IMG/VR virus record: IMGVR_UViG_3300031788_000005
Span: 1-64,000 of that record
Strand: one strand, 5' to 3'
DNA: 64,000 nt
Origin: a virus
In this document: positions 2,832 through 64,000 of the stretch, one piece after another
Layout of the letters: the number at the start of each line of letters is the position of its first letter
Numbering within the stretch: the first letter of the stretch is position 1
Notes under the pieces: generated by a model
Databases searched by the model: none
Seen by the model: only the letters and a program-made list of their open reading frames with translations
Told to the model about the DNA's origin: nothing
Position numbers and translations under genes: made by a program

Positions 2832-2989
2832 GTGAGTACCTTATCAGCAACAAACAACAAAGTCAATTGGAGTGGTAGTTTTTTTAATCATATATTCACC
2901 TTTTATGATTGAAACCAAAGAACCAGCAAATGTAAAACAACAGCAAATATCACAGCAATAGCAAATACTATAATAACAGTAGCCATATA

Positions 2990-3274
2990 TCAGTTTTTAA
3001 AGTACCTCTCTGCGCGTTCCTTCATCGAAGACAAGACTGGAACGACATCTTGCGGGATTTTCTTTTTACAAATATGAGTTTGTAATGTCCTACCGAGAGC
3101 AATGGACAAACCCATCTCCTTGTCAAATTTGTCTCCAGATTTTCGGTTTACAAAACTCCAGCCAATGCGATAACGGTCTTGGGGGTCTTTAACGGCAATT
3201 ACCACACCACGCAGTTGACCGCGCCGTTTACCGCGAGTTTCTTTTACGTATTGAATTAGAGGATTATTATTCAT
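2990..3274 (-). CDS. hypothetical phage protein (IGWS...DKFDK.MG..IAL.R)
   Basis: ORF track; own promoter at ~3304. Confidence 0.65.
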   Translation of the reverse strand: MNNNPLIQYVKETRGKRRGQLRGVVIAVKDPQDRYRIGWSFVNRKSGDKFDKEMGLSIALGRTLQTHICKKKIPQDVVPVLSSMKERAERYFKN

Positions 3275-3970
3275 ATTGCAAATATATCAGGGATGGATTG
3301 AAAAGTCAAGAAAGAAACTCAACTTCACAACCGCCGTTCATTTCAGCCAGCGCCCATTCAATTTCGTAATCACTAGGGGTAAATCCATAATGGTTTGTGG
3401 CCAAATTCTTTATGAGATTAAAACAGTAATCGCGATTACCTTTACCCATGCGCCACATGGTCTTAACGAATCCGCCCTCGAAATCATTTCGGAAAACATT
3501 TGTCTTGATTTTATAGACGTTTTTAAGATGTTAAGTGTCGTTATTCATTTTTTTATTGATTTTTAGTCTGCCACAGGGGAATCCATTGTTTAGATTCGAC
3601 CAACTGGAATTTTTCCTTACAGTGATAACATTCCATTATGTCACCAATTTTAATTTCTTTATTAGGGAGATTTTTCCAGCTTTCAACGCAACAGCGAAAG
3701 ACGCCAGCGGTAGTAATTGTTGTATCGTTAAGTTTCATACTTGCGCCAGCCGCGTCCATTCATCCATCACAAATTGAAGTTCCTTAAATGTAAGACTTGA
3801 ATTTGTTTCACCCAATGTCAAAACAGGTTCAAACCCTGTTCCGTTATGCTCATTTGCAACGTAGCCAATTTTCCATGCACCACTGTTAATTTCCAGACAC
3901 TGGCCACGAGCATTCCATTCACAATTAATATTATTCATATAAAAGATAATATCAAAGCCGGTCATTAAAG

Positions 3971-7227: not shown

Positions 7228-8450
7228 ATGAAGACTATAGCAGAATTAAAGGTAAAGTCAAGGCTTTACTCTCTTGCACCCATATTCTTCTTTGATTTGA
7301 TGATATCGTTCATGAGTAATACAATAAGCAGGTAAATCCACAAAACGCAATACACCAAGTCCCGCTTCATTCCGAACTAGATTCCAGATAAATAGCGTAT
7401 TTAAATTCGCGCCAATATCTTGATTGGTACGGAAGTAGTTATCCTCCACGTGCTTAATGAAATCGGGGTCTATGTTGCTATTTGTTGTAATCATACATTT
7501 GTCTGGTTTTTATACCAAGTGGTTCCTTCCAACCAAGGTTTTGTCATTTCGACTAATTCGCTACGCTTAAACAGCCCAAATGATTCTTGCGTAGTTGAAT
7601 CAATTACCGAAGTCATTGCGAAACCCAATTTAGAACCATGGTCTTTCTGCTTGTTCGCGAACTCTTCCACGCCAGCAATCGCCGCTTTAATTACTTGATG
7701 AAAGAATTGCGGGTCTTTTTTGCATTGACTAGCGACCAGAGATAGAATGATTTTTTCGTCCATATATTAATACCCTAACAGACTAATGCAAATGAGTCAA
7801 GTAAATTATCAAAGGGATTCTCCCGCTGCGTCTTCGGCAATAGCTTCAATTTCCCTTTCCAATTCAGTAATGCGCGTAAGTAGTTCGTTCAAAGCCCGTT
7901 CTTTTGCCTTGATACCAAGACCATCATGAGTTAGCAGGACTAATTTGATGTATTCAATGTCCATAAGTCAACCTAAAAGATTTGGTTTTCCACGACTCCA
8001 ATAAAAATTAGGCAAATATTTAAAATTAAACCACGCATTTAAATAACAGCCAAACAGAAAGAAAGTAAGTCTGGTATTGTAAAATGGATAGTTCTTGGGA
8101 TTCTCTTTGTGAATACCGATATAGGATACGCCTTCATGTTCAGCCCAAAAATAGGTTAGTTTCATTACTTAATGCGAGTTTGGATTACTTGAAACTGGTG
8201 AATTTCGACGGAGTTTTTCCAATCAGGCCCAAAATAATCTTCCATTGCTTTGATTAAGTCTCGTTCGCTGTCAAAGTCGAAGACATAATCCTTGCCATCC
8301 CAAAATGGCTGATAGCGTGGAACAGAAAGACTTTTACACCATGCGCGATGCATAACGTATCCAGTTGATTGGTTGATTTCCATATATTAGTACTTTATCA
8401 GAAGGATTAAGTTTTGTCAAGTTTTTCTTTTTTTTCTTTCATCATTTAAA

Positions 8451-8563
8451 GTTGGTTTTTGTCAATGTGTCAAAGCACCAGTATTTAGCCCCTACTGGAC
8501 GCGGCCCCAAGTATATTATGCGTCACGCTTCCATCTACTCACTAAATACGACCCATAACCAAC
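8451..8563 (-). ncRNA. putative structured ncRNA C
   Basis: Starts at the predicted +1 of a TTGACT promoter; ends pair (GTTGGTT/AACCAAC); internal GTATTTAG/CTAAATAC helix; no ORF. Confidence 0.5.
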
Positions 8564-8613
8564 AAAAGTACTCTAATAGAAAATTAACCAAAAGTCAAAT
8601 AAAAAATTTAAAA

Positions 8614-8720
8614 TGTCAGTGATGTTCAGGTCGCTCGCTTAGGTTTCTCATGTCAGTTACAAATGCGCTTCGCGCTCACCTAATGCCTACCCCTAACACG
8701 CCCTCAATGCATCACCAACA
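8614..8720 (-). ncRNA. putative structured ncRNA B
   Basis: Terminal helix TGTTGGTGATG/CATCACTGACA; internal TTAGGT/ACCTAA and GCGC-GAA-GCGC. Confidence 0.5.
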
Positions 8721-8729
8721 AAAATTAAC

Positions 8730-8802
8730 ATTGAAACGTTCACCGACTCGGCCAACCCTACGCTGTAAAGACGCTCGATTCGTCGCTTTTAACCGTTTCA
8801 AT
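8730..8802 (-). ncRNA. putative structured ncRNA A
   Basis: Directly after TTGACA-N17-TAATGT promoter; terminal helix ATTGAAACG/CGTTTCAAT. Confidence 0.5.
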
Positions 8803-8833
8803 AAAACAACATTATCAGAATCATCGCAGCTTG

Positions 8834-9109
8834 TCAACTATTTTTTAAAAAAGATTTTTGAATTTCCAACAAACAATTAAATGGTTTAACTGGTTTATTC
8901 ATATCAAAACGTCTAATAAAACGCCTAGCAGAACGAGGAAGTTCAAATACTCTTCCAGAATTCATAAAATTTACTTTCCCAACAAGGGTAACTACGGTCT
9001 CAGGAATAACTACATCTTTAATTGCCAAGGCAATAGGACACCTAGCAAAATCACCACGTTTACCTAATTTAATGTGTTTTTTCTGGACTTTAATGATTAC
9101 TTTATTCAT
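8834..9109 (-). CDS. hypothetical protein (CPIALA motif)
   Basis: ORF track. Confidence 0.6.
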   Translation of the reverse strand: MNKVIIKVQKKHIKLGKRGDFARCPIALAIKDVVIPETVVTLVGKVNFMNSGRVFELPRSARRFIRRFDMNKPVKPFNCLLEIQKSFLKNS

Positions 9110-9110
9110 A

Positions 9111-9482
9111 TTATTTATAAAATTTCGTGTGTCCTATCACCAAAAACGGCTTAAGATGTAATACTTTGGTAAAATACCAATTGTCTATATCTCCCCCGAA
9201 GTAACGACATCCGTGAGTTATGTTGGATGTTCTAGATTCATTCCACGCCCTATTAACCCGCTCGTAAATCCTACTACTTTCATACCTATGAGCGTTGGCA
9301 CCATACACACCTTGTAAACTTCCACGCTTCCTAATTACTTCACAAATAGCTACTTGAGCAAGATATGGTTCGCCGGAACTTTCTTCAACTACTGCATGAA
9401 TGATGGTAGCAGTATCCGGCAATTTTGCCTCACATTTACTAAATAAACTACACACTAGTACTATCAATACTATAACTCTCAT
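9111..9482 (-). CDS. SleB-like cell wall hydrolase (Hydrolase_2) with signal peptide
   Basis: EESSGEPYLAQVAICEVIRKR...IGHTKFYK; hydrophobic N-terminus. Confidence 0.75.
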   Translation of the reverse strand: MRVIVLIVLVCSLFSKCEAKLPDTATIIHAVVEESSGEPYLAQVAICEVIRKRGSLQGVYGANAHRYESSRIYERVNRAWNESRTSNITHGCRYFGGDIDNWYFTKVLHLKPFLVIGHTKFYK

Positions 9483-11109: not shown

Positions 11110-11343
11110 TTAAAAATTGTATTCAAGCATCCTATTTAAAATGCCCACATCTTCAATCCTAGCTTCTAGTCTTAAAGAGACGCTATTTCCCCAGACTGAC
11201 CAGATACCATTTGTTTGCGAACATAAACCCGCAGATAATACCTTTTTGCCGTTGGCTATTTTGTTGTGTTCTATAAATGGCGAAAACACAATAGGAACTT
11301 CCAAATCCTTTTCAAGGACGACAATGTATTTAGCTTTTTTCAT
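11110..11343 (-). CDS. hypothetical phage protein
   Basis: KYIV...PIVFS..IEH...SAG...WGNSVSL. Confidence 0.6.
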   Translation of the reverse strand: MKKAKYIVVLEKDLEVPIVFSPFIEHNKIANGKKVLSAGLCSQTNGIWSVWGNSVSLRLEARIEDVGILNRMLEYNF

Positions 11344-12057: not shown

Positions 12058-12363
12058 TTAACAAATTGGCTCACTCAACCACCTAAACAATTCCTTCTCA
12101 GTTTCAAAAACAAACGCCTTTCGTGTATCGGAATCTTCACCAATCCACCTCATAACTTCTTTCATTGAGAGTCTATGCATCCAGCTATTACAATGACTTA
12201 CGCCACTAGACGCCACCATCACATTATAAATGTCAAGACCGTATTCCATGCACTGTACCCACCCCTTATCATTGTAAATAATGACACCGACAATACTATC
12301 GTATTTGACTTGTTTAGGTTCGATGAACCCTTGGGGGGATTTGTTAAATATTACTTGTTTCAT
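12058..12363 (-). CDS. hypothetical protein, paralog of 5392-5679
   Basis: MKQVIFNKSPQ...FVFETEKELFRWLSE. Confidence 0.65.
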   Translation of the reverse strand: MKQVIFNKSPQGFIEPKQVKYDSIVGVIIYNDKGWVQCMEYGLDIYNVMVASSGVSHCNSWMHRLSMKEVMRWIGEDSDTRKAFVFETEKELFRWLSEPIC

Positions 12364-12396
12364 ATATAAAAAGATTAACAGAATTATCGGTTATTG

Positions 12397-12825
12397 TCAA
12401 GAGTTCTCAGAAAAAATCTTTTCGTCCGGTCGAACACCTTCAATGCTTCCGAAAGAGTATTCGAAAATACTATTATTTACACTACGAAAACTCTCTTTTT
12501 CAATAGCCTCATAGTCGGCGTTCGCAAGTGCAATAGCTTCGTTCTTGAAACCATCTTTCTTACCTTTAAACTTGGCGGGGACAGTATCCCACAACTCCAT
12601 AATACGGAGAGTAAATAGATACTTCTTCAACTGTTTTAGGGTAGACCAACATACAACAATATTATCCCCAACATAGGGAGGATTTTCCCCACTTAATAGT
12701 GATGTAGCACCCCAATTACCCATACTAACCCATTGATTATAAGCATCTTCCGGCGTATTCCCCTCAAGAAAAACTTTTATGCTGGAACCGAAGTTTTGGA
12801 AACTAATTTTACAATTTTTATTCAT
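12397..12825 (-). CDS. hypothetical protein
   Basis: 142-aa ORF with own promoter. Confidence 0.65.
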   Translation of the reverse strand: MNKNCKISFQNFGSSIKVFLEGNTPEDAYNQWVSMGNWGATSLLSGENPPYVGDNIVVCWSTLKQLKKYLFTLRIMELWDTVPAKFKGKKDGFKNEAIALANADYEAIEKESFRSVNNSIFEYSFGSIEGVRPDEKIFSENS

Positions 12826-13476
12826 GTGATTACTTTATCAGATACGGAGTTAGAAGTCAACTAAATTTTACTACAATGTTAGATTTCAAACACTAATCTG
12901 ATGGAAGTTAATACAAATTTTTCGTGGCTCAATAGCTATAATATTATTATCAAGCAACATGTCACACAATCTCGTATCAGGAATTTCATAAGATAAATCA
13001 AATACTAGCGCCTTACAATATTCTCCATGACCACTTTTGGAAATCAAAATTCCAAATAAATAGCCACCATTAGTTGAACCATTTTCGGAACAGAACTGAA
13101 ACCATTTTCCCTCACCGAGATGCGCCAATTTTTGTTCATAATTATTCGTTGTTGTCGTTACATAGGCACGGAATCCCTTCAAAGAGATGTTTTTGATGCA
13201 TCATTGAGACATTAGCCTTACTTGGCTTAGGAAATGGAGACCGTTTTGAAACATGGATATACTTAGTTTTAACGATACGACGAGCCTGAAAACTTCCCTT
13301 GGAAGAATTGTGGTATCCCTTACTCGGTACCTCCACACTAACCGAACCTTCCTTACTGAGAATTTTCCGCAACCGTGTTTGATTTTTGTTCATTTTGTTT
13401 TTTTTTTTTGTTTTATTGTTAACCGATATACAGACTCTACCAGAACAGGAACAGATTGTCAATACTTATTTTGAGA

Positions 13477-13576: not shown

Positions 13577-13996
13577 TTAGACCGTCAAAATCTTTCCCCC
13601 GACAATTTTAGACTTCAAGAATTTCTTGAAAGTGTGAGCGTCGTCATTATCGAAACCACAAATATATTCTGATTTTTCTTCTGTTACGTCTAAGTTTCTC
13701 CAAGTTGGGCGAGAACCGTCCGACTTGTCATAAACAAATTCTACCGTCTTGATAATAGCGACGGGGAAAACATCCTTGTCACGTACTTGGATAAGAGACA
13801 AATAACCATCATTCCCAATAAAATTATTAATTTCTTGTAGGCTTGTTTTCTTTTTAAGATTAGTATTGACTAGTTCGATAATATCATGCGGACAACTCTC
13901 GCCAACCCACGCGGTAAAGATTTCGAATTCCCGCACAGAAAGGTCGAGTACTACTGAGTGGGGCTGGCCGTTTGTTTTGTTTACTTTAATTTTCAT
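13577..13996 (-). CDS. protein with C-terminal WYL/Sm-like domain
   Basis: EFVYDKSDG..TWR.L......YICGFD....FKKFLKSKI. Confidence 0.5.
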   Translation of the reverse strand: MKIKVNKTNGQPHSVVLDLSVREFEIFTAWVGESCPHDIIELVNTNLKKKTSLQEINNFIGNDGYLSLIQVRDKDVFPVAIIKTVEFVYDKSDGSRPTWRNLDVTEEKSEYICGFDNDDAHTFKKFLKSKIVGGKILTV

Positions 13997-23144: not shown

Positions 23145-24155
23145 CTACTTTTTTGAATCGTAGTGTTTATTAATGACCTTAAAACTTCCACCGTTTTTAA
23201 GCTTAATGACAACTCCCTCAAACGGCTGGCCGTTAATTTCGGTTAATTCTTCGTCATACTTTTTAATTAATTCTGGAGTCAAAATAACACCCTTTTCCAA
23301 CATTGGAACAGTTTCAATATTAAGTATTTCAGCTACTTTTTCATAGTAGAATAAACCTTCTGTACCCTCATAATTTAATGTGTCTAAATTTAAAACACTA
23401 AATAAAGCAAAACCCAATGGCAACTTCGCATGAGGATTTACCGGACCTGCCTGAATTCCACCCCCGTAAATCTCGCCACGAAGAGCAAGATTAACTTTAA
23501 ATTTATTACAGAAATGAGTAAGTTTATTTAAAATGTCTATTTTTTTGGCAATTATAGTATAATTATTTACTGCGTCCAATTTCAAATCCATAGAACGAGT
23601 TGTAATACCAGTATCATAATGGTAATCCCAATCGGCGGTTTCTAATTCTAGCGTCTTCTCCTTACAATAGGCAGTCAAACTACTACCGTCAATTTTCAGA
23701 GTCACATCAACAATTTCACCATAAGGAATATTAAGAAGATTCTGGTATCTTTCCTCGTCAGACTTAAAAATTCCGTGGGGTAGATTACCTTTTGCATCAA
23801 GATTTTGAGGAAGAGGGGGTTCATAATGCGTTATCCCCAAAATTCCAGAGACTTCATATCCTTCTTCAGCCAAAAATGTGTTATATTGAATGATTGACGG
23901 GCTTTCGACAATACCCATCGAAAAAACACCCCTTAACTTTATGGCTCGAACCCGACTAGACTTTGCCTTGTAAAATTTAGCCCATTCTGCGTCAGGTAAG
24001 ACTGTATCTGGGGAAATAAACACAACCAAATCTTCAACCTTAAATTGGTTTCGCTTTACGATTACTTGGTAATTTAGCACCGTTACGATGGAAAGAAACT
24101 CACCGTTAGGATGGTCAATGATTGATTTAATTTTTTCAATACTTGCTAGTTTCAT
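23145..24155 (-). CDS. RNA ligase (DRB0094/Rnl5-like family)
   Basis: N-terminal OB-like KLASIEKI...HPN; motif I KIDGSS; GEIYG; EGVV; FKVIN. Confidence 0.9.
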   Translation of the reverse strand: MKLASIEKIKSIIDHPNGEFLSIVTVLNYQVIVKRNQFKVEDLVVFISPDTVLPDAEWAKFYKAKSSRVRAIKLRGVFSMGIVESPSIIQYNTFLAEEGYEVSGILGITHYEPPLPQNLDAKGNLPHGIFKSDEERYQNLLNIPYGEIVDVTLKIDGSSLTAYCKEKTLELETADWDYHYDTGITTRSMDLKLDAVNNYTIIAKKIDILNKLTHFCNKFKVNLALRGEIYGGGIQAGPVNPHAKLPLGFALFSVLNLDTLNYEGTEGLFYYEKVAEILNIETVPMLEKGVILTPELIKKYDEELTEINGQPFEGVVIKLKNGGSFKVINKHYDSKK

Positions 24156-48753: not shown

Positions 48754-49524
48754 TCATAGGTCTGAGAATTTTTTAATTGTTAGTTTGTTATCTTTAATTA
48801 ATAAATATTGGTTAAGATGGCAGTCGATATCTATATTTTGCCAAATATTTTCATCAAACGAACCCTCGGTACTGTGGGGTAAAATATTAGTATGGGAACT
48901 ATGCCCAACTACCTGCGGAAGTCCTTCAATCGGTTCAAATTCCGTATCAAAATCCAACCAGTCCAATCCACCCACTGATTGACTACCTCCTCTACCATAT
49001 CCAGCGCGGTACATCCAATGTCTTCCATTAGCAGAAAGAGATATTTCGGCCTGTTCTACCTGTTCATCCAACCATTTAGAAAGACTTATTTTATCTAATT
49101 TTTGGTTTGGAGGAAGGAATGAGGGGTGAAGACCCGCGTGGGATAATAGCCGGTCGTCCAAAAACAAATACCACAAAAACTTTTCCCTGATTGCTGGCAT
49201 AAAAGACCCAAATTCTTTGGTAATTAACTTGTCCTTCCACCTATAATAACCACTACATTGAGTGTGCTGAGTATAACCCCACAAGTAACTTATATCGTGA
49301 TTGCCGATTGTGGTAAAGAAGTTTGGCTCAAACAAATACTTTTTGAGAAATTTACACGTTTTGATGGCGTCTTCTTCGCTATTATGACTAAAACTATCGA
49401 AAAAATCGCCGAGACAAACTACTTTATCGTAATTTTCACGCTTGAGAATTGTCTCTAGTTTATTAATCTCCTGATGCGGGTCGCTCAGGACAAGAATCGT
49501 CTGGTTTTTACTTGAAAGTTCCAT
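48754..49524 (-). CDS. calcineurin-like metallophosphoesterase
   Basis: DPH, GDFFD, GNHD, SHAG, QVVGHS. Confidence 0.9.
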   Translation of the reverse strand: MELSSKNQTILVLSDPHQEINKLETILKRENYDKVVCLGDFFDSFSHNSEEDAIKTCKFLKKYLFEPNFFTTIGNHDISYLWGYTQHTQCSGYYRWKDKLITKEFGSFMPAIREKFLWYLFLDDRLLSHAGLHPSFLPPNQKLDKISLSKWLDEQVEQAEISLSANGRHWMYRAGYGRGGSQSVGGLDWLDFDTEFEPIEGLPQVVGHSSHTNILPHSTEGSFDENIWQNIDIDCHLNQYLLIKDNKLTIKKFSDL

Positions 49525-54050: not shown

Positions 54051-54860
54051 ATGAATATTCACGCTCACCCAACGAAGAAAATTGGCGTTTTGCCTCGTCC
54101 AGCACACGTTAAAACCTGTAAATTAGCCAATTATTTAAATATTGGGATGATTCCAACTCCCCCCGCATCTTATGATTGGGGTACGACCGCTCCAAATTCT
54201 CTTCAAATGTTCATGAATGATTCCATAGGTGACTGCGCGGTAGCAGCTTATCTTCATCACAAAGAAACAGTTTTGCAAACTGCTGGTTTGGGAGTTTCAT
54301 TTCTTGACCCTGTTGCTTTGGAAGTTTATGAATGGGCAACAGCCGATGAAAATGGCGGACAAGGATATAATCCAAAAGCAGGTTCTGGCGATAATAATCC
54401 AACCGATACTGGTTTAGTACTAGTGAGTTTTTTGGAAGATTTAAGGACTCGTGGATTGATTTATGCTCATGCCGAAGTTAATTTAAATAATGCCAAAGAA
54501 GTTGCAGCCGCGCAATATTTATTTGGTGGACTTTATGTGGGAGTTGCACTTCCTGTTTTTGTTCAAAATCTTCAGAATCTTTGGTATATTCCAACCACCG
54601 CTCAAAACTTAGGAGACCCAACAAAAGGAAGTTGGGGCGGGCATTGCATTTATACTCGTGGAATTACGCCAACGACTGGAAATACTATTTTAACGAGTTG
54701 GGGAGAAACTATTCAAGCAACTCCACAATGGATGCAAACTTATCAGGATGAGGCTCATATTATTGTTCATAAGCATTCAGCCGCAGCTTTTGATAAATTA
54801 GCTAGTGCTAATTTTGGAATTAATGACCTTATTGCCGACCTAAATGAAATAAAAAAATAA
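54051..54860 (+). CDS. papain-like cysteine peptidase
   Basis: ND.IGDC..A...GSWGGHC...TSWG. Confidence 0.7.
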   Translation: MNIHAHPTKKIGVLPRPAHVKTCKLANYLNIGMIPTPPASYDWGTTAPNSLQMFMNDSIGDCAVAAYLHHKETVLQTAGLGVSFLDPVALEVYEWATADENGGQGYNPKAGSGDNNPTDTGLVLVSFLEDLRTRGLIYAHAEVNLNNAKEVAAAQYLFGGLYVGVALPVFVQNLQNLWYIPTTAQNLGDPTKGSWGGHCIYTRGITPTTGNTILTSWGETIQATPQWMQTYQDEAHIIVHKHSAAAFDKLASANFGINDLIADLNEIKK

Positions 54861-54874
54861 TTAGATATTTCTAC

Positions 54875-54922
54875 TTAAATTTTATTATTTATTAAATTGG
54901 TAATAGAGTATATTCCAGTCAT
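54875..54922 (-). pseudogene. GIY-YIG endonuclease N-terminal relic
   Basis: MTGIYSITNLINNKI*VEIS: stop where the Y of YIG is expected. Confidence 0.6.
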
Positions 54923-54940
54923 ATACTATATTACACTGTT

Positions 54941-55182
54941 TTACGTTTTTTAGCCGATATTTTGTGTTAATCTGACATTTTTCTCACTAACTGGATGTGG
55001 CGATGTGTTAATAATCGCTGCCCAAACCCGCTCTCAATGGAAAACATTATCCTCAAGCTGTTTTGGTTGCATCTACCTTTTGGTACAAACGAGTTTTTAA
55101 GACTCTCCCATGGCTGTTTTGATGTATCGAACTTCCTCTAATATAGGACTTTACCCATATCAGCGTCAGAATATTAACGTAA
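54941..55182 (-). ncRNA. rnpB: RNase P RNA, minimal form
   Basis: P1 TTACGTT/AACGTAA; P2 TCTGAC/GTCAGA; P3 ATATGGG/CCTATAT; CR-I GAGGAAGTTCGATA and CR-V ACAAAATATCGGCT forming P4 with bulged U; TGCAAC; AGAAAAATG before P2 3' strand. Confidence 0.8.
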
Positions 55183-55188
55183 TAATTC

Positions 55189-55217
55189 AATTTACACCAT
55201 CCATCAAAATTTGTCAA
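55189..55217 (-). promoter_or_regulatory. promoter of RNase P RNA
   Basis: TTGACA-N17-TAAATT; predicted +1 coincides with the P1 5' strand; overlaps a GTGTAAA motif. Confidence 0.65.
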
Positions 55218-55564
55218 TTATTATCTTCAATATTATCTCCCCACCAAAAAACATCCGATTTGCTACCAAAGAAATTAGCTCCACCAAGTTCTATACTTAA
55301 TTGCAAATTAGTATTATAGGTAAAATTAAAATAAGGAGGCATTTCATCTACTTGTAATGTTACAAAAATACACTTCTTGGGGAGTTTATATGATGCAGAA
55401 TTAATCGTTATTGGCGTTTGAATCATGCCGTGATTTAATGCTACGCGGCAGGTCTCGCGGAGACCATCCAAATATCCCTGCTCATAAGTATGTTTCGGGT
55501 CAACGGTTGTTTTGCTACATCCCGCAAATAGCAGGACGGCAATTAGTAGTATTATATTTTTCAT
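55214..55564 (-). CDS. putative lipoprotein
   Basis: MKNIILLIAVLLFAGC lipobox. Confidence 0.65.
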   Translation of the reverse strand: MKNIILLIAVLLFAGCSKTTVDPKHTYEQGYLDGLRETCRVALNHGMIQTPITINSASYKLPKKCIFVTLQVDEMPPYFNFTYNTNLQLSIELGGANFFGSKSDVFWWGDNIEDNN

Positions 55565-56205
55565 ATTTATTTTTTAATCATGAATTTTTTAATGCGTTTT
55601 AAAAAAGCATCCAGATTTTCATTTTCTTTTACAATGTGGTCGTGGTCGTAATATGCTCCGTCGCCCTTGGTATTAAAATCTAATTCTTGGACTTCACAAG
55701 GAATATTCGAAAATTTCAGGAATTCTTTTATACCTTCAAATTTGTAAGAGAGTTTAGTATGATAATCGTCTCCTTCATCAAACTTTTTTCCGTCAACAAA
55801 AATGATGTAATACGCATCATATGACACATCCAATGTTACTAATGTTAATTTCATAAAATTATTATTTTCAAGGAATTTTTAAATCGAATTTAGGTACTTT
55901 TACGTTTTTATCAGGCTTTAATTTTTGTTGGTGTATTTTGGATAATTTTTCTCTCAATTCATAAACCTCTAATGCCAAACCAATTACCAGATTATCTCCC
56001 ACTAAATCACGCCATTTTTCGCCATACCTTAAGGCTTCACCACCGCCATTTTTCCAATGTTGGACAGTATATTTTCCATCGCAGATAGTCACTTCCCAAT
56101 CAATTTCTTTTTCGGTAACGGGTTCCCATGGACTTGGACTGACTATACATCCACATTTAAAAGTCTCTGGATTAACAATTTGTTTACAACGTTTGCATTT
56201 CCATT

Positions 56206-60136: not shown

Positions 60137-60228
60137 TGGCGGTTCGCAGATATCACGCTTACCAGACGGGTTTTAACCGTCCCAATAGCTTTCCAAGCTA
60201 CGCTGGTGCCTCGACCAGTTTACGAACC
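60137..60228 (-). tRNA. tRNA-Ser(GGA)
   Basis: Cloverleaf, long variable arm, G73, CCA; T-loop AGCGTGA. Confidence 0.8.
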
Positions 60229-60232
60229 AAAA

Positions 60233-60326
60233 TGGCGGATAAGTAAAGTGCCGACCTCTATCCGTGGTATTAGCACGAATCACCTGCTTTCAAAGCAGAG
60301 GCCATCGCCGGATGGCTAACCTATCC
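60233..60326 (-). tRNA. tRNA-Ser(TGA)
   Basis: CTGC-TTTGAAA-GCAG, long variable arm, GCCA; T-loop GTCGGCA. Confidence 0.85.
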
Positions 60327-60858
60327 AAATTATAAAAAATTTATTTTATCTAAATTTATTTTTGGATTAATAATAGTTTCCCCAATTTCCGTAGTCGCTA
60401 GAAATTTCCTAACTTCTTGGATTTTACTTTTATTACCCTCCCCATATTCAATCAACGCCTGCATGGTTTGATGTTCACAAATAAATTTTACATCGGAGGG
60501 AATATATTTTTCCCATAGTTTTTTAAATTGTTTATATTTCATAATATTCTAATTCAGCTATTCTTCTGGCCGCTTTTTTATCTACTCGCAAACAACGCCT
60601 TCTATGGGTTGTGTCTTTAGATTTTCGCCTTCCAGATATGCCTTTTAAAAAAGATTTACTGCTATACGGTTTCATAATATTATTGGGTAAATTTTAGATT
60701 TGTCTTTCTGCAACTCCTTCCACATCAAAACCTGCTGACAAGCATGAATTCCATCGCGGAAATAACGTTGGTGGTCGGGATGGGTTTGTGGCAAAAGGAT
60801 AAATTTATCCCACGCTTCGACAAGACATTGCATTATTTCTTTTTCCTCATTCATAAAT

Positions 60859-60931
60859 TGGTGAATCCTTGATGGCTCACACACCACAAGCGGTTTGCCG
60901 CAGTCGTCTTTCTCATTGCAGACGAGGACTC
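60859..60931 (-). ncRNA. tRNA-like RNA without a recognisable anticodon loop
   Basis: GAGTCCT/AGGATTC-ACCA acceptor; CGTCT/AGACG, GCGG-CAAA-CCGC and TGG/CCA hairpins. Confidence 0.5.
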
Positions 60932-60937
60932 GTAAAT

Positions 60938-61024
60938 TGGCGGATAATTACCCTCCTGCCGAGTAAACCTTTCGGTTCGCACCGTTTTCGAAACGGGCCT
61001 AGAAACTTTTCTAGTTAATTATCC
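60938..61024 (-). tRNA. tRNA-Ser(CGA)
   Basis: CCGT-TTCGAAA-ACGG; variable arm ACC-GAAA-GGT; GCCA; T-loop GGCAGGA. Confidence 0.8.
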
Positions 61025-61470
61025 AAATCATTGGTCTCCATCCATTAAAGTTTGTAACGTCAAAGCTGCTAGATTTGCTTTGGTAGGCCGTTCAATACCG
61101 CAGATGGGACACATTTTCCAAGATTTTGGAATATCCCTGTGTAATGAGTCCATCCACCAAGAATAGCGCCTATTTCCATCAATATATTCATGGAGATATT
61201 TAATATGGTCACACCAAGTTTTCATAAAGCCGCTTGCCAGAATGTATCGACTGCCCCAATCATAGTCCCTGATAAAACCCAAAAATCACCTTCTGCTCGT
61301 GGATATGGATTAGGGATAATCTCTACTTCATGTTCTCCCGCTGACAATGGCACTATGATATCTCGCGGTAGACGCATTTTAGATGCATCAATTAAATTTA
61401 ATATTCTAGTCGTAATTACTTTCATTAATTTAAGCTTAACAAATTTTTCATTCAAAGTCAAGAAAAAAAA

Positions 61471-61545
61471 TGGAGGCTAATCAGGGATTTGTTTCGCCCT
61501 GTCTTGTAATTTACGAAATTACTGTGCATACAACACCTAAAAGCC
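61471..61545 (-). tRNA. tRNA-Thr(CGT), atypical
   Basis: GTAAT-TTCGTAA-ATTAC; enlarged T-loop; U.U mismatches in acceptor; TCCA. Confidence 0.6.
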
Positions 61546-61550
61546 GAAAG

Positions 61551-61625
61551 TGGAGGACAAGCCGGAATTTACATCCGATTCCCAATTTTACCAAAATTGA
61601 ATTTTATTACATAAACTACAAGTCC
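61551..61625 (-). tRNA. tRNA-Thr(GGT), atypical
   Basis: CAATT-TTGGTAA-AATTG; U.U mismatches in acceptor; TCCA. Confidence 0.7.
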
Positions 61626-61639
61626 AAAAAATCATAAAT

Positions 61640-61718
61640 TGGTGCTGCGGACAGGAGTTGAACCTGCATTATTCCAATTATGCGCTTCCTCTTTAGGAAA
61701 GAGTGCCATTACCGCAGC
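61640..61718 (-). tRNA. D-arm-less tRNA-Arg(CCT)-like
   Basis: GCTGCGG/CCGCAGC-ACCA; canonical GGTTCAACTCC T-arm; CTCT-TTCCTAA-AGAG. Confidence 0.6.
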
Positions 61719-61726
61719 GTAAAATC

Positions 61727-61834
61727 GTGCTGACTGTCTGTTGAGTTGGCAATCCCAATTAACGACCCGACAGCTAGGTGGCTCACTAAACGTGGTGTTC
61801 GGTAGCGAATCGAACGCGCCTTTGATATCAGCAC
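61727..61834 (-). ncRNA. permuted tRNA-like (Y RNA/YrlA-like) RNA
   Basis: Ends pair (GTGCTGA/TCAGCAC); GCG-TTCGATT-CGC T-arm precedes a loop-closed acceptor-like stem ACCGAAC-ACCAC-GTTTAGT. Confidence 0.45.
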
Positions 61835-61837
61835 AAA

Positions 61838-61987
61838 TTATTCGTCGTCCCAACCTTGAGGGACTTTCTTGCCCGTTTCCTTTTCAAACTGGCGGTGCAT
61901 TTCGTAACGCACATCACCATCGGCAGGGCCAAAATCAGCGTTGATACGAAACCATTTAAGGTATTCAAGTTCTGTTGCTTCTTCCAT
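61838..61987 (-). CDS. small protein, paralog of 56206-56385
   Basis: Read manually: ATELEYLKWFRINADFGPA...ETGKKVPQGW; own promoter. Confidence 0.65.
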   Translation of the reverse strand: MEEATELEYLKWFRINADFGPADGDVRYEMHRQFEKETGKKVPQGWDDE

Positions 61988-62028
61988 ACTCAAACATTAT
62001 CATCAATGTCGGATTATGTCAAGCGAAA

Positions 62029-62119
62029 TGGAGGAAGGAGCAAATCCCGCCTTTGACACCCCTTTCAGGGTGCGATGTGTTTAGCAAACACTCCTAGAAC
62101 CTCGTCTAGTTCACCTTCC
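62029..62119 (-). tRNA. tRNA-Ser(GCT)
   Basis: GTGT-TTGCTAA-ACAC; long variable arm CACCC/GGGTG; CCA; T-loop GGCGGGA. Confidence 0.75.
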
Positions 62120-62513
62120 ATTGTTCAAAGTTTTCTGCTAATTTTACATCTGGATGTCTTTTTGAAGCAGAAAAACTAAGATAAATTTTACTTTTACCGC
62201 GAGCCAAATGCAACGGAACAAAATAGACCTTATCATTTGCTGGATAATAAATGGCAAAATAATCTATTTTGCCTTCGTAATCTTTGCTTACTTGCTGTCC
62301 CTTAATTTTGTAAGTAGATTTTCCATCAAATTCGATGCTGTTATTTACTTTTCGTCCTGTTTTTGTTTGGATGCGAATTAAATTATTATCGTCTTGAACG
62401 ATTAAATCTACACCCGTATTTTCTCCAAATGGGAGAAATGCCGTTTTCCCTAATTCCAAAACTTTAGCTAAAACTTTGGCTTCAGAAATACTTCCTTTGC
62501 TTTTTGTGTTCAT
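62106..62513 (-). CDS. PD-(D/E)XK endonuclease, group I intron-associated/homing type
   Basis: KG.ISEAKV...PFGEN...DLIV......RIQTKT...Y...IDYFAIY.P....YFVP. Confidence 0.85.
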   Translation of the reverse strand: MNTKSKGSISEAKVLAKVLELGKTAFLPFGENTGVDLIVQDDNNLIRIQTKTGRKVNNSIEFDGKSTYKIKGQQVSKDYEGKIDYFAIYYPANDKVYFVPLHLARGKSKIYLSFSASKRHPDVKLAENFEQWKVN

Positions 62514-62553
62514 GTCTATCTAGTAATACACTAGACACGTTTCATTGGGAAAT

Positions 62554-62638
62554 TGGTCGCAATGGTGGGACTTCCACCCACAAAGGTCGGAGATTTTAAG
62601 TTTCCATGCTCTTGTATTCGCTGTCAACCCACATTGCG
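62554..62638 (-). tRNA. tRNA-Leu(TAA)-like, atypical
   Basis: CGCAATG/CATTGCG-ACCA; GGAAA-CTTAAAA-TCTCC; T-arm GTGGG-TGGAAGT-CCCAC. Confidence 0.6.
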
Positions 62639-62645
62639 TTGAAAT

Positions 62646-62721
62646 TGGTGTGTTCTTTCCCACCGTCAGCAGCCAAGGGAGCGGCTTTACCAGCCATCCT
62701 CGGTATCGTTTTGTGCGAACG
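62646..62721 (-). ncRNA. degenerate tRNA-sized CCA-ended element
   Basis: Ends in ACCA; GTTC/GAAC; GGCT/AGCC and CCC/GGG hairpins; sits between tRNAs. Confidence 0.3.
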
Positions 62722-62726
62722 TATAT

Positions 62727-62803
62727 TGGTGCGCCCCCTCGGTAATGCTCCGAGTCCTATCGGGTAAGAGCCGATTGCTTGCCACTATTAGAGCTTGGAA
62801 CGC
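62727..62803 (-). tRNA. tRNA-Lys(CTT)
   Basis: ATCGG-CTCTTAC-CCGAT; T-loop AGCATTA; ACCA. Confidence 0.85.
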
Positions 62804-62809
62804 AGTAAA

Positions 62810-62885
62810 TGGTTGTCGTGACAGGTGCCGACCCTGCTAAATTCTCCATGTAAAGGAGATAATCATGCCGATGATACTCACGACA
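62810..62885 (-). tRNA. tRNA-Val(TAC)
   Basis: TCTCC-TTTACAT-GGAGA; T-loop GTCGGCA; ACCA. Confidence 0.8.
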
Positions 62886-62891
62886 GTAAAA

Positions 62892-62966
62892 TGGATGCCT
62901 GTGATGGTGCTGCCCCATCGCCTCGACTTTCAGAGAGTCGCGAACTACTGTTATTCAGAACAGGCA
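62892..62966 (-). tRNA. tRNA-Gln(CTG)
   Basis: CGACT-CTCTGAA-AGTCG; U1-A72; T-loop GGCAGCA. Confidence 0.85.
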
Positions 62967-63433
62967 ATAAAATTACTTTTCTTGTAATGATTCAGAATGA
63001 CCGCATTGTGGACATTTCCAACATCTAACAAGTTTTCCTTCTGAATAATGAGTGTATTCTGTTTTAATATTTTCATCAACAAAATCAACAGACTCACCCA
63101 ATTTTAAATTAATTTTGCAGTATTTACATTTTTTATTTTTCATAAATTTAAAATCTCAACAAAAAGGTTAATTCTTCGCTGAGAATCCAAGGTATATTAC
63201 TACCCTTGAAAACCCCTATGGTGCACTTTAACCATTCCCCTTGCAAAAAGAACAAGCGTTAAGGGTACTAAATCTCTCTAATCCACTCCGTAACTGGAAT
63301 AAATTTTTCACATTTACAATTAGGACATTTTTTAAAAACCTCGTCTAAATTAAAAATCTCAGAACATCCTATGCATTTTTTGAAATTTTGCAATCTTGGT
63401 TTAATTTTGTAATAATCTTTGATTTTCATAAAA

Positions 63434-63508
63434 TGGAGCCAAGCCTCGGTAATGCTCCGAGTTCTCTCGATTACAAGTCGAGTGCATCACTTTGTATGCT
63501 TGCAAGGC
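63434..63508 (-). tRNA. tRNA-Thr(TGT)
   Basis: CTCGA-CTTGTAA-TCGAG; T-loop AGCATTA; TCCA. Confidence 0.85.
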
Positions 63509-63513
63509 GAAAT

Positions 63514-63589
63514 TGGTGCATCCTGTCGGAACTGCCCCGACATCCCATTCCTTAAGAGGGAAGGCTCTATCTCGCTGAGTTAAGGATGC
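63514..63589 (-). tRNA. tRNA-Lys(CTT), second copy
   Basis: TTCC-CTCTTAA-GGAA; T-loop GGCAGTT; ACCA. Confidence 0.85.
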
Positions 63590-63858
63590 AAAATTATTAA
63601 TATATTATTTAATTTCTAAATTATCTAGAACTTCTATTAGTTTAACATCCAAAATTTGGGCATCATCTTCTGTTAGAGAGCGGTCATAAATCAAACCTTT
63701 CGTAGGAGAACCGTATCTCCAATCTTTCCAGTATTTTTTACCATCTCTATCTTGCCAAATTGTTGTTCCACCGTCACGAATTGTATTAATTTTCTTAACC
63801 AAAATTTCTTGCATATTTTTATTATGAATGAAGTTTAGATTTTTGTCAAGGAGAAAAA

Positions 63859-63933
63859 TGGTCCCAGTAGAAGAAATTGCATCTTTAACTCCGAATGACT
63901 TATGAAATCACCGTTCCACTCTGGATTACTGGG
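63859..63933 (-). tRNA. tRNA-Met or Ile2(CAT)
   Basis: TGAT-TTCATAA-GTCA; CCCAGTA/TACTGGG-ACCA. Confidence 0.7.
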
Positions 63934-63938
63934 AAAAA

Positions 63939-64000
63939 TGGTGGACATTTCGTGTTACGCTCACGACTTTCAACTTTTTCAGAGTTGCACTTTCACTAGA
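63939..64000 (-). tRNA. tRNA-Phe(GAA), 5' end beyond window
   Basis: CAACT-CTGAAAA-AGTTG; T-loop AGCGTAA; ACCA. Confidence 0.8.

What the first reader, a model, noticed from the sequence alone, without database searches (positions are those of the whole stretch)
60137..64000. Systematic, covarying remodelling of the tRNA T-loop/D-loop elbow
Seen: T-loops read AGCGTGA, GTCGGCA, GGCAGGA, GGCGGGA, AGCATTA (twice), GTCGGCA, GGCAGCA, GGCAGTT, AGCGTAA, TGCAATT, TGGAAGT and TGTAAAT rather than TTCRANY. Positions 54/58 covary (A/U, G/G or U/A). tRNAs with G55 carry AG in the D-loop (Thr-TGT, Gln, Phe, both Lys, Ser-GGA/CGA/GCT), whereas the two with U55 (Ser-TGA, Val) keep GG. Lys(CTT) at 62727 and Thr(TGT) share an identical 19-nt T-arm. 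Inference: this is compensated structure rather than decay. It removes the TrmA/TrmFO and TruB target sites and may evade elbow-reading nucleases or toxins.
Basis: partly seen in the sequence, partly recalled or inferred. Interest (0 to 1): 0.72.

Follow-up and report, generated by a model that had tools for sequence, protein, structure and literature searches.

The report
Phage tRNA set with rewired elbow
An uncultured peat phage carries about 43 transfer-RNA genes, most of which build the corner of the L-shaped molecule from a different but mutually matching set of bases (A18 with G55 instead of the near-universal G18 with U55); they look like working tRNAs that lack the sequence read by standard tRNA-modifying enzymes and by at least one published antiviral nuclease.

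Summary
All 13 listed T-loops sit in clean cloverleaf genes on the minus strand. These genes belong to a ~15-kb array of about 43 tRNA genes for 19 amino acids, on an 83-kb T4-like phage contig from peat.

The covariation survives formal tests:
- **18:55.** In 148 tRNAs from this phage and six other phage contigs, G55 goes with a D-loop AG and U55 with GG (Fisher p about 1e-26). There is no exception among the 31 tRNAs whose numbering is unambiguous.
- **19:56.**
- **54:58.** The pairs are U:A, A:U, G:G or C:A (mutual information 1.1 bits; 0 of 10,000 shuffles reach it).
- **Other invariants.** G53:C61, C56 and R57 are kept, and discriminator bases mostly follow bacterial identity rules.

These are therefore compensated, probably working tRNAs, not decayed copies. 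Standard finders miss about 30 of them.

Why the elbow is rewired is inferred, not shown. G55 removes the TruB site. It also removes the U54-U55 motif that the published T-loop nuclease Cash needs.

I found no paper describing A18:G55. This scan has already flagged the same design in at least 26 other genomes, and I found it here in Verrucomicrobial tRNA arrays too.

The parts
60137..60228 (-). tRNA-Ser(GGA), long variable arm, T-loop AGCGTGA (A54 G55 C56 U58), D-loop with GAGG, G73 + CCA
60233..60326 (-). tRNA-Ser(UGA), long variable arm, T-loop GTCGGCA (G54 U55 C56 G58), D-loop keeps GG, G73 + CCA
60859..60931 (-). CCA-ending tRNA-like RNA: 7-bp acceptor stem and T-arm (loop TGTGAGC) but no recognisable anticodon arm
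   Evidence: fold z -2.5
60938..61024 (-). tRNA-Ser(CGA), T-loop GGCAGGA (G54 G55 C56 G58), D-loop AAAAGTTT (A18 G19)
61471..61545 (-). tRNA-Thr(CGU)-like gene with aberrant elbow: 5-nt D-loop, 10-nt T-loop, weak acceptor stem
61551..61625 (-). tRNA-Thr(GGU), T-loop TGTAAAT (G55 U56), D-loop ATGTAATA (A18 A19: compensated 19:56 A:U)
61640..61718 (-). tRNA-Arg(CCU) without D-stem; canonical T-loop TTCAACT and a TAATGG linker that keeps GG; the only Rfam tRNA hit in the window
62029..62119 (-). tRNA-Ser(GCU), T-loop GGCGGGA (G54 G55 C56 G58), D-loop ACGAGGTT
62106..62513 (-). PD-(D/E)XK endonuclease gene inside the array (homing-endonuclease-like; context, not part of the tRNAs)
   Evidence: PF11645, E 2.4e-27
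62554..62638 (-). tRNA-Leu(UAA) with oversized D region and short variable loop, T-loop TGGAAGT (G55 G56); D region holds AC, numbering ambiguous
62727..62803 (-). tRNA-Lys(CUU), T-loop AGCATTA (A54 G55 C56 U58), D-loop TAGT (A18 G19)
62810..62885 (-). tRNA-Val(UAC), T-loop GTCGGCA (G54 U55 C56 G58), D-loop ATCGGCAT (G18 G19)
62892..62966 (-). tRNA-Gln(CUG), T-loop GGCAGCA, D-loop CAGT (A18 G19), U1:A72
63434..63508 (-). tRNA-Thr(UGU), T-loop AGCATTA, 8-nt D-loop ACAAAGTG (A18 G19 at the standard positions)
63514..63589 (-). tRNA-Lys(CUU) second copy, T-loop GGCAGTT (G54 G55 C56 G58), D-loop GAGA
63859..63933 (-). tRNA with anticodon CAU (Met or Ile2), T-loop TGCAATT (U54 G55 C56 A58), D-loop GAGTGG
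63939..64000 (-). tRNA-Phe(GAA), T-loop AGCGTAA, D-loop TAGT; the gene runs on to 64014, beyond the window end

Best explanation
The stretch is the first quarter of a roughly 15-kb tRNA gene array (60137-75452, minus strand) on a T4-like phage contig. It holds about 43 genes for 19 amino acids.

**What the tRNAs are.** They are real and most likely functional in translation. Their elbow follows an alternative, internally compensated design:
- The tertiary contact G18-U(Psi)55 is replaced by A18-G55.
- The outer Watson-Crick pair 19:56 is kept, as G:C or by covariation as C:G, U:A or A:U.
- The intraloop 54:58 pair is U:A, A:U, G:G or C:A.
- G53:C61 and purine 57 are retained, so the T-loop fold and its docking to the D-loop should persist.

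**What is shown.** The anatomy, the covariation, and the spread of the same design to other phages and to bacterial accessory arrays.

**What is inferred.** The tRNAs are charged and decode. The advantage of the design is that the phage's own tRNA supply cannot be handled by proteins that read the standard U54-U55-C56 and G18 elbow. Those proteins are the host modifiers TruB, TrmA and TrmH and, more importantly, T-loop-directed immune nucleases such as the Cash Schlafen enzyme. Phage translation would then continue when host tRNAs are cut.
For: **Real cloverleaf genes**
- High-scoring cloverleaves with encoded CCA occur only in the array. Background over both strands of 83 kb stays at 27 or below, against 29.5-41.5 in the array.

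**Covariation**
- 18:55: G55C56 tRNAs have a D-loop AG in 58 of 63 and GG in 9 of 63. U55C56 tRNAs have GG in 69 of 70 (Fisher p 1.6e-26).
- With 7-nt D-loops, where numbering is unambiguous, the split is 20 GG/UC against 11 AG/GC with no exception (p 1.2e-8).
- 19:56 compensates in the minority classes (one search list): G55G56 with AC, U55A56 with GU, G55U56 with AA, U55G56 with GC.
- 54:58: U:A 99, A:U 23, G:G 16, C:A 5, other 7. Mutual information is 1.08 bits and 0 of 10,000 permutations reach it.
- On a gapless 19-sequence alignment the stems are 95% paired, and the covariation score is 0.96 against 0.23 for shuffles (0 of 500 reach it).

**Retained features**
- G53:C61 in 57 of 60, C56 in 56 of 60 and R57 in 60 of 60 G55 tRNAs.
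- Discriminator bases follow bacterial identity rules: G for Asp, Trp, most Ser, Asn and Gln; U for Gly, Cys and Thr; A for the rest.

**Spread**
- The closest relative phage, G001, has the same design in 23 of 30 tRNAs. Same-anticodon partners there differ by 150 double compensatory stem changes.
- Three other phages mix both designs in one array.
- Verrucomicrobial contigs carry arrays of 15-21 such tRNAs, while the same genomes hold a full dispersed canonical set.

**Possible driver**
- Cash cuts 5' of U55 and is blocked by single U54 or U55 mutations (PMC13462974).
- The phage also encodes an RNA ligase and a candidate 2H phosphoesterase, which fits conflict over tRNA cleavage.
Against: - No direct evidence of expression, processing, charging or decoding. 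One peat metatranscriptome has contigs over two array tRNAs, but DNA carry-over cannot be excluded.
- The host is unknown, so it is not shown that the host has a T-loop nuclease or a canonical tRNA set.
- About 40% of the G55 tRNAs keep U54, so TrmA avoidance is not general.
- A few array members do not fit the scheme: T-loops TCCTCAA and ACATCAG, a 10-nt T-loop, and a tRNA-like RNA without an anticodon arm.
- The only previously described tRNAs that lack both G18G19 and U55, the staphylococcal non-proteogenic tRNA-Gly, are excluded from translation (PMC13443448).
- D-loop numbering is ambiguous for long D-loops. Seven G55 tRNAs hold both AG and GG.
Confidence: 0.72

Rival explanations
1. The alternative elbow is structurally compensated but selectively neutral. 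It is an equivalent variant that arose once in a mobile pool of tRNA genes. It spreads by descent, by recombination of T-arm modules, and by hitch-hiking in phage and bacterial arrays, and it confers no protection.
For: - The identical 17-nt T-arm CTCGGAGCATTACCGAG sits in tRNAs of different identity: Lys and Thr here; Gln, Gly, Met and Asp in other phages. This suggests modular exchange.
- The same T-arm occurs in 23 bacterial contigs.
- Some G000 tRNAs are 77-85% identical to Verrucomicrobial array tRNAs, which points to shared ancestry.
Against: - The design is nearly fixed in whole arrays (G000, G001, Verrucomicrobial arrays), while the dispersed housekeeping tRNAs of the same bacterial genomes score as canonical.
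- All 25 T5 tRNAs keep U54-U55; all but tRNA-Ile1 keep C56.
- A neutral variant should also drift into housekeeping sets.
- Several independent 54:58 solutions co-occur with G55.
Confidence: 0.2
2. The rewired elbow marks 'self'. It lets a phage-encoded activity tell phage tRNAs from host tRNAs. That activity could be a nuclease that destroys host tRNAs, or a phage processing enzyme such as the RNase P-like RNA at 54941-55182.
For: - The set is nearly complete (19 amino acids), which would allow translation without host tRNAs.
- A conserved roughly 240-nt structured RNA with RNase P-like P4 strands lies 5 kb away. It is syntenic in the relative G001 and shows compensatory changes in two helices.
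Against: - No tRNA nuclease was recognised among the 40 larger proteins scanned.
- The RNA has no Rfam RNase P match even at E up to 10.
- Phages G002-G004 mix both elbow types in one array. That does not fit a strict self label.
Confidence: 0.12
3. The G55 genes encode tRNA-shaped RNAs that do not take part in ribosomal translation. They could be decoys for host nucleases, or donors for non-ribosomal reactions, like the staphylococcal non-proteogenic tRNA-Gly that also lack G18G19 and U55.
For: - Staphylococcal NP tRNA-Gly lack G18-G19 and U55 and are kept out of translation (PMC13443448).
- The array also holds clearly non-standard tRNA-like RNAs (60859-60931 and 61471-61545).
Against: - The set spans about 40 anticodons for 19 amino acids, with standard 7-nt anticodon loops (U33 was a search criterion; R37 in 58 of 60) and identity-consistent discriminators.
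- For most amino acids the G55 gene is the phage's only tRNA.
- A decoy for an elbow-reading nuclease should keep the canonical elbow, not lose it.
Confidence: 0.07
4. The genes are decaying tRNA pseudogenes whose loops have drifted.
For: Most score below the thresholds of ARAGORN and Rfam.
Against: - Stems are 95% paired with abundant double compensatory changes.
- The loop changes are correlated, not random.
- CCA ends and discriminators are kept.
- The same design is conserved in unrelated phages and bacteria.
Confidence: 0.02

Closest known systems
Canonical bacterial and phage elongator tRNAs (Rfam RF00005), including large phage tRNA clusters such as that of phage T5
   Same: - Cloverleaf with a 7-bp acceptor stem, 5-bp anticodon and T stems, 7-nt anticodon and T loops, and an encoded CCA.
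- Array layout with small ORFs and homing endonucleases between the tRNAs, as in T5.
- G53:C61, C56 and R57 are kept.
   Different: - G18-U55 is replaced by A18-G55 in most genes, and U54:A58 is often replaced by A:U, G:G or C:A.
- All 25 T5 tRNAs keep U54-U55 and a D-loop G18.
- About 30 of the roughly 43 genes fall below the Rfam and ARAGORN thresholds.
Phage tRNAs that escape tRNA-targeting defences through anticodon-loop changes (T5-like phages; PrrC, PARIS AriB, Retron-Eco7 PtuAB; PMC10264068, PMC11464382)
   Same: The phage brings its own tRNAs, and these differ from host tRNAs at a site that a nuclease reads. The phage also carries RNA-repair-type genes.
   Different: - The changed site here is the elbow (positions 18, 19, 54-58), not the anticodon loop.
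- The change affects nearly the whole set, not single isoacceptors.
- No nuclease resistance has been shown.
Staphylococcal non-proteogenic tRNA-Gly (NP1-3) (PMC13443448)
   Same: They lack the conserved G18-G19 and U55.
   Different: Those are a few Gly-only tRNAs with a shortened anticodon loop, excluded from translation by weak EF-Tu determinants. Here a near-complete decoding set keeps G19:C56 or a compensated equivalent, and keeps normal anticodon loops.
Eukaryotic initiator tRNA-Met and tRNA-Ala(AGC) with an A54:A58 pair (PMC7566577, PMC7912444)
   Same: The U54:A58 reverse-Hoogsteen pair of the T-loop is replaced by another pair in tRNAs that still work.
   Different: Those keep U55 and G18. 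The alternatives here are A:U, G:G and C:A, and they come together with A18:G55.
Long tRNA gene arrays of bacteria (L-arrays, tRNA array units; PMC8421152, PMC4758250)
   Same: Dense accessory arrays of 15 to more than 20 tRNA genes exist beside a housekeeping set. Verrucomicrobial arrays found here carry the same A18/G55 design and some related tRNAs.
   Different: The L-array paper I searched (PMC8421152) does not mention the elbow change. The present array sits in a phage genome.

Membership tests
tRNA (Rfam RF00005) | Cloverleaf: 7-bp acceptor stem, D arm, 5-bp anticodon stem with a 7-nt loop (U33, purine 37), 5-bp T stem with a 7-nt loop | tested here: met
   - 38 genes of the contig parse this way.
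- Stems are 95% paired with covariation 0.96 against 0.23.
- Exceptions: two Arg genes without a D-arm, one gene with a 10-nt T-loop, and one RNA without an anticodon arm.
tRNA (Rfam RF00005) | Conserved elbow nucleotides G18, G19, U54, U55, C56, A58 | tested here: not met
   In G000 only about 5 of 38 parsed genes have U55-C56 with GG. Most have G55 with A18, and 54:58 is often A:U or G:G.
tRNA (Rfam RF00005) | Score at or above the family's gathering threshold (29 bits) | tested here: not met
   12 of about 43 genes reach it in a sensitive search of the whole contig, and 1 within the window.
tRNA (Rfam RF00005) | Aminoacylation and decoding | not testable with these tools
   Only indirect signs: identity-consistent discriminator bases, long variable arms on Ser, encoded CCA.
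T-loop structural motif | Pair between loop positions 1 and 5 (54:58), closing G53:C61 pair, purine at 57 to stack with the intercalating base 18 | tested here: met
   54:58 covaries (U:A, A:U, G:G, C:A; MI 1.08 bits; 0 of 10,000 shuffles). G53:C61 is kept in 57 of 60 and R57 in 60 of 60 G55 tRNAs.
T-loop structural motif | Three-dimensional fold (U-turn at position 55, intercalation of base 18) | not testable with these tools
   No RNA 3D prediction or probing data are available. That G55 can make the turn is inference.
Phage tRNAs that evade tRNA-targeting immunity | The phage tRNA differs from host tRNAs at the nuclease's recognition or cleavage site | tested here: inconclusive
   Cash needs U54 and U55 (PMC13462974), and U55 is absent from most tRNAs here. 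The host, its tRNAs and its defences are unknown.
Phage tRNAs that evade tRNA-targeting immunity | Demonstrated resistance to cleavage and rescue of infection | not testable with these tools
   This needs biochemical and plaque assays.
Non-proteogenic tRNAs (staphylococcal NP tRNA-Gly type) | Single amino-acid specificity, shortened anticodon loop (extra 31:38 pair per PMC13443448; standard numbering would be 32:38), weak EF-Tu determinants | tested here: not met
   19 amino acids and normal 7-nt anticodon loops. EF-Tu determinants were not evaluated.

The most novel reading that the evidence does not exclude
A18:G55, with freely covarying 19:56 and 54:58, is a second working design of the tRNA elbow. 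It is carried by a mobile pool of tRNA genes that moves between phages and bacterial accessory arrays. Whole translation sets built on it would be immune to T-loop-directed immunity (Cash-type Schlafen nucleases) and independent of TruB, TrmA and TrmH. In this phage lineage the design may be coupled to a phage-encoded, specificity-domain-less RNase P-like RNA, so that maturation also no longer depends on reading the standard elbow.
Probability: 0.3. Interest if true: 0.88.

Novelty: new variant of a known kind. Interest (0 to 1): 0.76.

Why it matters
G18, G19, U54, U55 and C56 are textbook near-universal tRNA nucleotides, and the tools that find tRNAs rely on them.

- **For structure.** A near-complete decoding set that swaps G18-U55 for a matched A18-G55 shows that the elbow has at least one other viable solution.
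- **For annotation.** Standard finders miss about 70% of this phage's tRNAs, so phage tRNA content is being undercounted.
- **For phage-host conflict.** Immune nucleases that cut the T-loop at U54-U55 have just been described, and their authors left open whether phage tRNAs are targeted. The idea that these elbows are a counter-defence can be tested at the bench.
- **For applications.** tRNAs that host modification enzymes and nucleases cannot see could serve as scaffolds for orthogonal translation.

Tried and rejected
- **Standard tRNA finders.** ARAGORN default gave 0 hits in the window. At lowered thresholds it gave hundreds of false hits across the contig. Rfam at gathering and at E up to 10 gave one tRNA in the window.
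- **Covariance model.** I tried to seed one from MAFFT alignments. A1 was misaligned in the 5' half, and A2 placed the single gap at the 5' end instead of the variable loop. No model was built. I used a loop-blind structural parser and an equal-length gapless alignment (A3) instead.
- **Cultured relatives.** blastn of the stretch against 50,697 cultured-phage records found no match. A tblastn of rIIA found no relative above 35% identity, so no host could be assigned.
- **Model phage.** T5 was checked for the same design. All 25 of its tRNAs keep U54-U55; only tRNA-Ile1 departs at position 56.
- **Literature.** Searches for A18/G55, unusual phage T-loops and elbow-directed defence found no description.
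- **Other nucleases.** DARNA and RorSlfn5 turned out to cut the anticodon arm or loop, not the T-loop, so they do not bear on the elbow.
- **RNase P.** An Rfam search over 54500-55600 gave no hit for any RNase P family.
- **Metatranscriptome.** A few contigs of one peat RNA run cover parts of the array, including two whole tRNAs (Lys-UUU 69396-69485 and Asn-GUU 70129-70216). Contigs cannot show ends or strand, and DNA carry-over is possible, so I do not count this as evidence of expression.
- **A8:U14 swap.** I looked for a compensated swap here and found no consistent pattern.
- **Alanine.** No Ala tRNA was found on this contig, which CheckV estimates at 75% complete.

Full report
**Where the stretch lies**

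The window is the first 64 kb of a single 83,067-bp IMG/VR virus record that CheckV estimates at 75% complete. The contig is AT-rich, 34-39% G+C. It encodes rIIA, rIIB, an RNA ligase, a clamp loader, thymidylate synthase, dCMP deaminase, dUTPase and several homing endonucleases. I read it as a T4-like phage fragment. No cultured phage is close: there is no blastn match, and rIIA is at most 35% identical. The sequence recurs in many peat metagenomes.

**Checking the observation**

Standard finders almost fail here. ARAGORN gives 0 genes in the window and 11 beyond it. Rfam's tRNA model gives 1 gene in the window at gathering score, and 12 on the whole contig in a sensitive search.

I therefore wrote a cloverleaf scanner that scores only stems and geometry and ignores the D-loop and T-loop sequences. 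Scores of 29.5 or more occur only on the minus strand between 61551 and 75452. The best background score on both strands of the rest of the contig is 27. A looser pass added the class II and weaker members.

Together the two passes give about 43 genes, all ending in a discriminator base plus CCA, for 19 amino acids. Ala was not found. Sixteen of these genes lie in 60137-64000.

So are the 54/58 combinations, the AG-versus-GG rule, and the 19-nt stretch shared by Lys(CUU) 62727 and Thr(UGU).

**Formal covariation tests**

To gain power and independence I fetched tRNA regions from the closest relative and from other phages:
- G001, a 203-kb contig whose neighbouring ATP-grasp protein is 73% identical.
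- Five other IMG/VR contigs, found either through that protein or through the exact 17-nt T-arm.

The same scanner run on these gave 148 distinct tRNAs.

*Positions 18:55.*
- Of 63 tRNAs with G55-C56, 58 have AG in the admissible part of the D-loop and 9 have GG.
- Of 70 with U55-C56, 69 have GG (Fisher p 1.6e-26 for GG, 5.7e-17 for AG).
- Two of the five apparent exceptions come from my window rule: in both, AG sits one or two bases further 5'.
- With a 4-bp D-stem and a 7-nt D-loop the numbering is unambiguous. There the split is 20 GG/UC against 11 AG/GC with no exception (p 1.2e-8). Typical D-loops differ by one base, AATGGTA against AATAGTA.

- G55-G56 T-loops (TGGAAAT, TGGGATT) go with AC.
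- U55-A56 goes with GU.
- G55-U56 (Thr-GGU at 61551) goes with AA.
- U55-G56 goes with GC.

*Positions 54:58.* The counts are U:A 99, A:U 23, G:G 16, C:A 5 and other 7. Mutual information is 1.08 bits over all tRNAs and 1.42 bits within this contig, and 0 of 10,000 permutations reach either value. A54:U58 occurs only together with G55.

*Tool-based count.* On a gapless alignment of 19 equal-length tRNAs:
- Stems are 95% paired, with 168 cells changed on both sides.
- The covariation score is 0.96 against 0.23 for shuffles (0 of 500 reach it) and 0.14-0.19 for slid partners.
- The tertiary pair 54:58 is U:A in 11, A:U in 6 and other in 2.
- The pair 18:55 is G:U in 10 and A:G in 9.

**Signs of function**
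- The G55 tRNAs keep the rest of the T-loop signature: G53:C61 in 57 of 60, C56 in 56 of 60, purine 57 in 60 of 60. A14 and A21 are also mostly kept.
- Discriminator bases follow bacterial identity rules. They are G for Asp, Trp, three of four Ser, and one each of the two Asn and two Gln genes; U for Gly, Cys and Thr; A elsewhere.
- Ser tRNAs have long variable arms, and Gln has U1:A72.
- Same-anticodon tRNAs of G000 and G001 are only 35-83% identical. They differ by 150 double compensatory and 22 single consistent stem changes, against 20 that unpair. Since I selected for stems, this shows maintained structure under fast divergence rather than an independent test.
- Direct evidence of expression is weak. 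One peat metatranscriptome holds contigs across a few array segments, including two whole tRNAs, but DNA carry-over cannot be excluded.

**How widespread the design is**
- G001 has it in 23 of 30 tRNAs. G002, G003 and G004 mix 20-35% of such tRNAs with canonical ones in the same arrays. One translation apparatus must therefore accept both types.
- All 25 T5 tRNAs keep U54-U55 and a D-loop G18. One of them, tRNA-Ile1, has U56 matched by A19.
- The exact 17-nt T-arm shared by Lys and Thr also occurs in 23 bacterial contigs, about half of them Verrucomicrobiota.
- Scanning those contigs shows arrays of 15-21 tRNAs per 8 kb in which 147 of 155 tRNAs have G55 with AG D-loops. They include the same Arg type with G55-G56 matched by AC.
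- Three such genomes also hold a full, dispersed set of tRNAs scoring 50-76 bits with the standard model. The rewired tRNAs are therefore an accessory set beside a canonical housekeeping set.
- A few G000 tRNAs are 77-85% identical to array members; for example Lys(CUU) is 83% identical over 71 nt. This points to a shared mobile gene pool.

**Mechanism**

*Shown.* The elbow is rebuilt from covarying parts while the frame of the T-loop motif is kept.

*Inferred from established tRNA structure.* In canonical tRNA, G18 stacks between bases 57 and 58 and donates hydrogen bonds to O4 of Psi55. The G19:C56 pair forms the flat outer face used by the ribosome, RNase P and T-boxes. The 54:58 pair closes the loop. 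An A18 amino group facing O6 of G55 could give a comparable contact. A G at the turn position can provide an imino proton to a backbone phosphate, as the first G of GNRA loops does. The outer 19:56 pair stays Watson-Crick in every class, so the face read by the translation machinery should persist. None of this could be modelled here.

*Possible benefit.*
- G55 cannot be a TruB substrate.
- A54, G54 and C54 cannot be TrmA substrates.
- A18 cannot receive the Gm18 modification that TrmH makes on G18.
- The CRISPR-associated Schlafen nuclease Cash cuts tRNAs mainly in the T-loop, at the phosphate 5' of U55 in a UUC motif. Single U54 or U55 mutations abolish cleavage. The authors state that whether phage tRNAs are targeted is open (PMC13462974).
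- A near-complete tRNA set without U55 is what one would expect of a phage selected to keep translating under such an attack. This remains an inference.
- The RNA ligase (23145-24155) and a weak 2H-phosphoesterase match (67375-67917) fit a lineage in conflict over tRNA cleavage.

**Rivals**
- *Decay.* Excluded by the covariation.
- *Non-translational role.* The staphylococcal NP tRNA-Gly also lack G18G19 and U55 (PMC13443448). This is unlikely here given 19 amino acids, normal anticodon loops and identity elements.
- *Neutral spread of an equivalent variant.* The recurrence of identical T-arm modules in tRNAs of different identity fits this. It does not explain why housekeeping sets stay canonical while whole accessory and phage arrays are converted.
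- *Self-marking for a phage-encoded activity.* This remains possible. A conserved structured RNA with RNase P-like P4 strands lies at 54941-55182 and is syntenic in G001 with compensatory changes. It matches no Rfam RNase P family, and I found no phage tRNA nuclease.

**Comparison with what is known**

The genes work like tRNAs and have the tRNA cloverleaf. They fail the family's conserved-elbow feature, and most fail its score threshold. I found no description of A18:G55 in the searchable literature. Known partial precedents are:
- A54:A58 in eukaryotic initiator tRNA and tRNA-Ala.
- The staphylococcal NP tRNA-Gly.
- Anticodon-loop escape variants in T5-like phages.

Earlier notes of this scan report the same design in at least 26 other genomes. 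I re-tested here their claims about covariation, about bacterial arrays and about a T-loop nuclease.

I class this as a new variant of a known kind. The anatomy and the compensation are well supported. The function and the selective reason remain to be tested.

Noticed in passing
window 54941-55182 (-); homolog at L002:13015-13260 (+): A roughly 240-nt non-coding RNA whose nested helices enclose strands resembling the RNase P P4 helix (GAGGAAGTTCG... and ...ACAAAATATCGGCT). It is syntenic in the relative phage G001 (nhmmer E 8e-11), with both-sided changes in two helices. No Rfam RNase P family matches it, even at E up to 10. It could be a specificity-domain-less RNase P RNA, which would matter for how the rewired tRNAs are processed.
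   Followed up: partly
window 61640-61718 (-) and L010:13881-13958 (-) (contig 73881-73958): Two tRNA-Arg genes (CCU, GCG) without a D-stem. An 8-nt TAATGGCN linker replaces the D-arm, and a long variable region holds CATAATTGGA. Both keep the canonical TTCRACT T-loop and a GG.
   Followed up: partly
window 60859-60931 (-): A 73-nt CCA-ending RNA with a perfect 7-bp acceptor stem and a T-arm. In place of the D and anticodon arms it has two hairpins, one with a 10-nt loop and one with a tetraloop. It recalls the 'tRNA-like stable RNAs' annotated in the T5 tRNA region.
   Followed up: partly
window 61471-61545 (-): A Thr(CGU)-like gene with a 5-nt D-loop, a 10-nt T-loop and two U-U mismatches in the acceptor stem. 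It may be a different elbow solution or a pseudogene.
   Followed up: no
L010 (contig 60001-76500): 4566-4655, 5652-5735, 9396-9485, 10129-10216, 13411-13488 (all -): Variable-arm classes are shuffled. Pro(UGG), Gln(UUG), Lys(UUU) and Asn(GUU) copies carry 12-19-nt variable regions. Leu(CAA) has a 5-nt variable loop. The long-armed Asn(GUU) with a canonical T-loop is 83% conserved in G001.
   Followed up: no
L010:9493-9570 and 13700-13777 (-); L011:10569-10647, 11191-11267, 8236-8312, 9221-9298: A third group of T-loops (TCCTCAA, TCCCCAA, TCGTCAA, CAGTCAA, ACATCAG, GTGCCAG) goes with D-loops that begin AAATG or similar. It fits neither the U55/GG nor the G55/AG rule. It includes tRNA-Ile(UAU), which would read AUA without lysidine.
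   Followed up: no
L010:14214-14289 (-) (contig 74214-74289): tRNA-His(GUG) appears to have C at position 33 (anticodon loop TCGTGAA) and A73. The G001 His gene has C73.
   Followed up: no
window 62639-62726 (-) and 63150-63270 (-): Two non-coding segments between tRNA genes. The first ends in CACACCA but does not fold as a tRNA (z -1.3). The second folds into three hairpins (z -3.2), the last of which looks like a terminator.
   Followed up: partly
window 23145-24155 (-), 48754-49524 (-); L009:3375-3917 (-), 12296-12964 (-): An RNA ligase, two metallophosphoesterases and a weak 2H (2'-5' RNA ligase superfamily / Acb1-like) match. Together they could form a tRNA-repair or anti-signalling toolkit.
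   Followed up: no
window 62106-62513 (-); L009:603-1736 (-), 2706-3389 (+), 8249-9352 (-): PD-(D/E)XK, HNH and GIY-YIG homing-type endonuclease genes are interspersed in the tRNA array, as in phage T5. One HNH ORF ends inside tRNA-Pro(UGG) at 64566-64655.
   Followed up: no
L018, L020, L021, L023, L031, L033, L035, L036, L038 (Verrucomicrobiota MAG contigs): Dense accessory arrays of 10-21 tRNAs per 8 kb in which almost all members have A18/G55. Given the peat origin of the phage, this hints at a Verrucomicrobial host or a shared mobile tRNA pool.
   Followed up: partly
L017:8211-8287 (-) (phage T5 tRNA-Ile1): T5 tRNA-Ile1 has a TTTAAAT T-loop (U56) and a D-loop with GA. This is a single compensated 19:56 A:U change in a model phage.
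   Followed up: no
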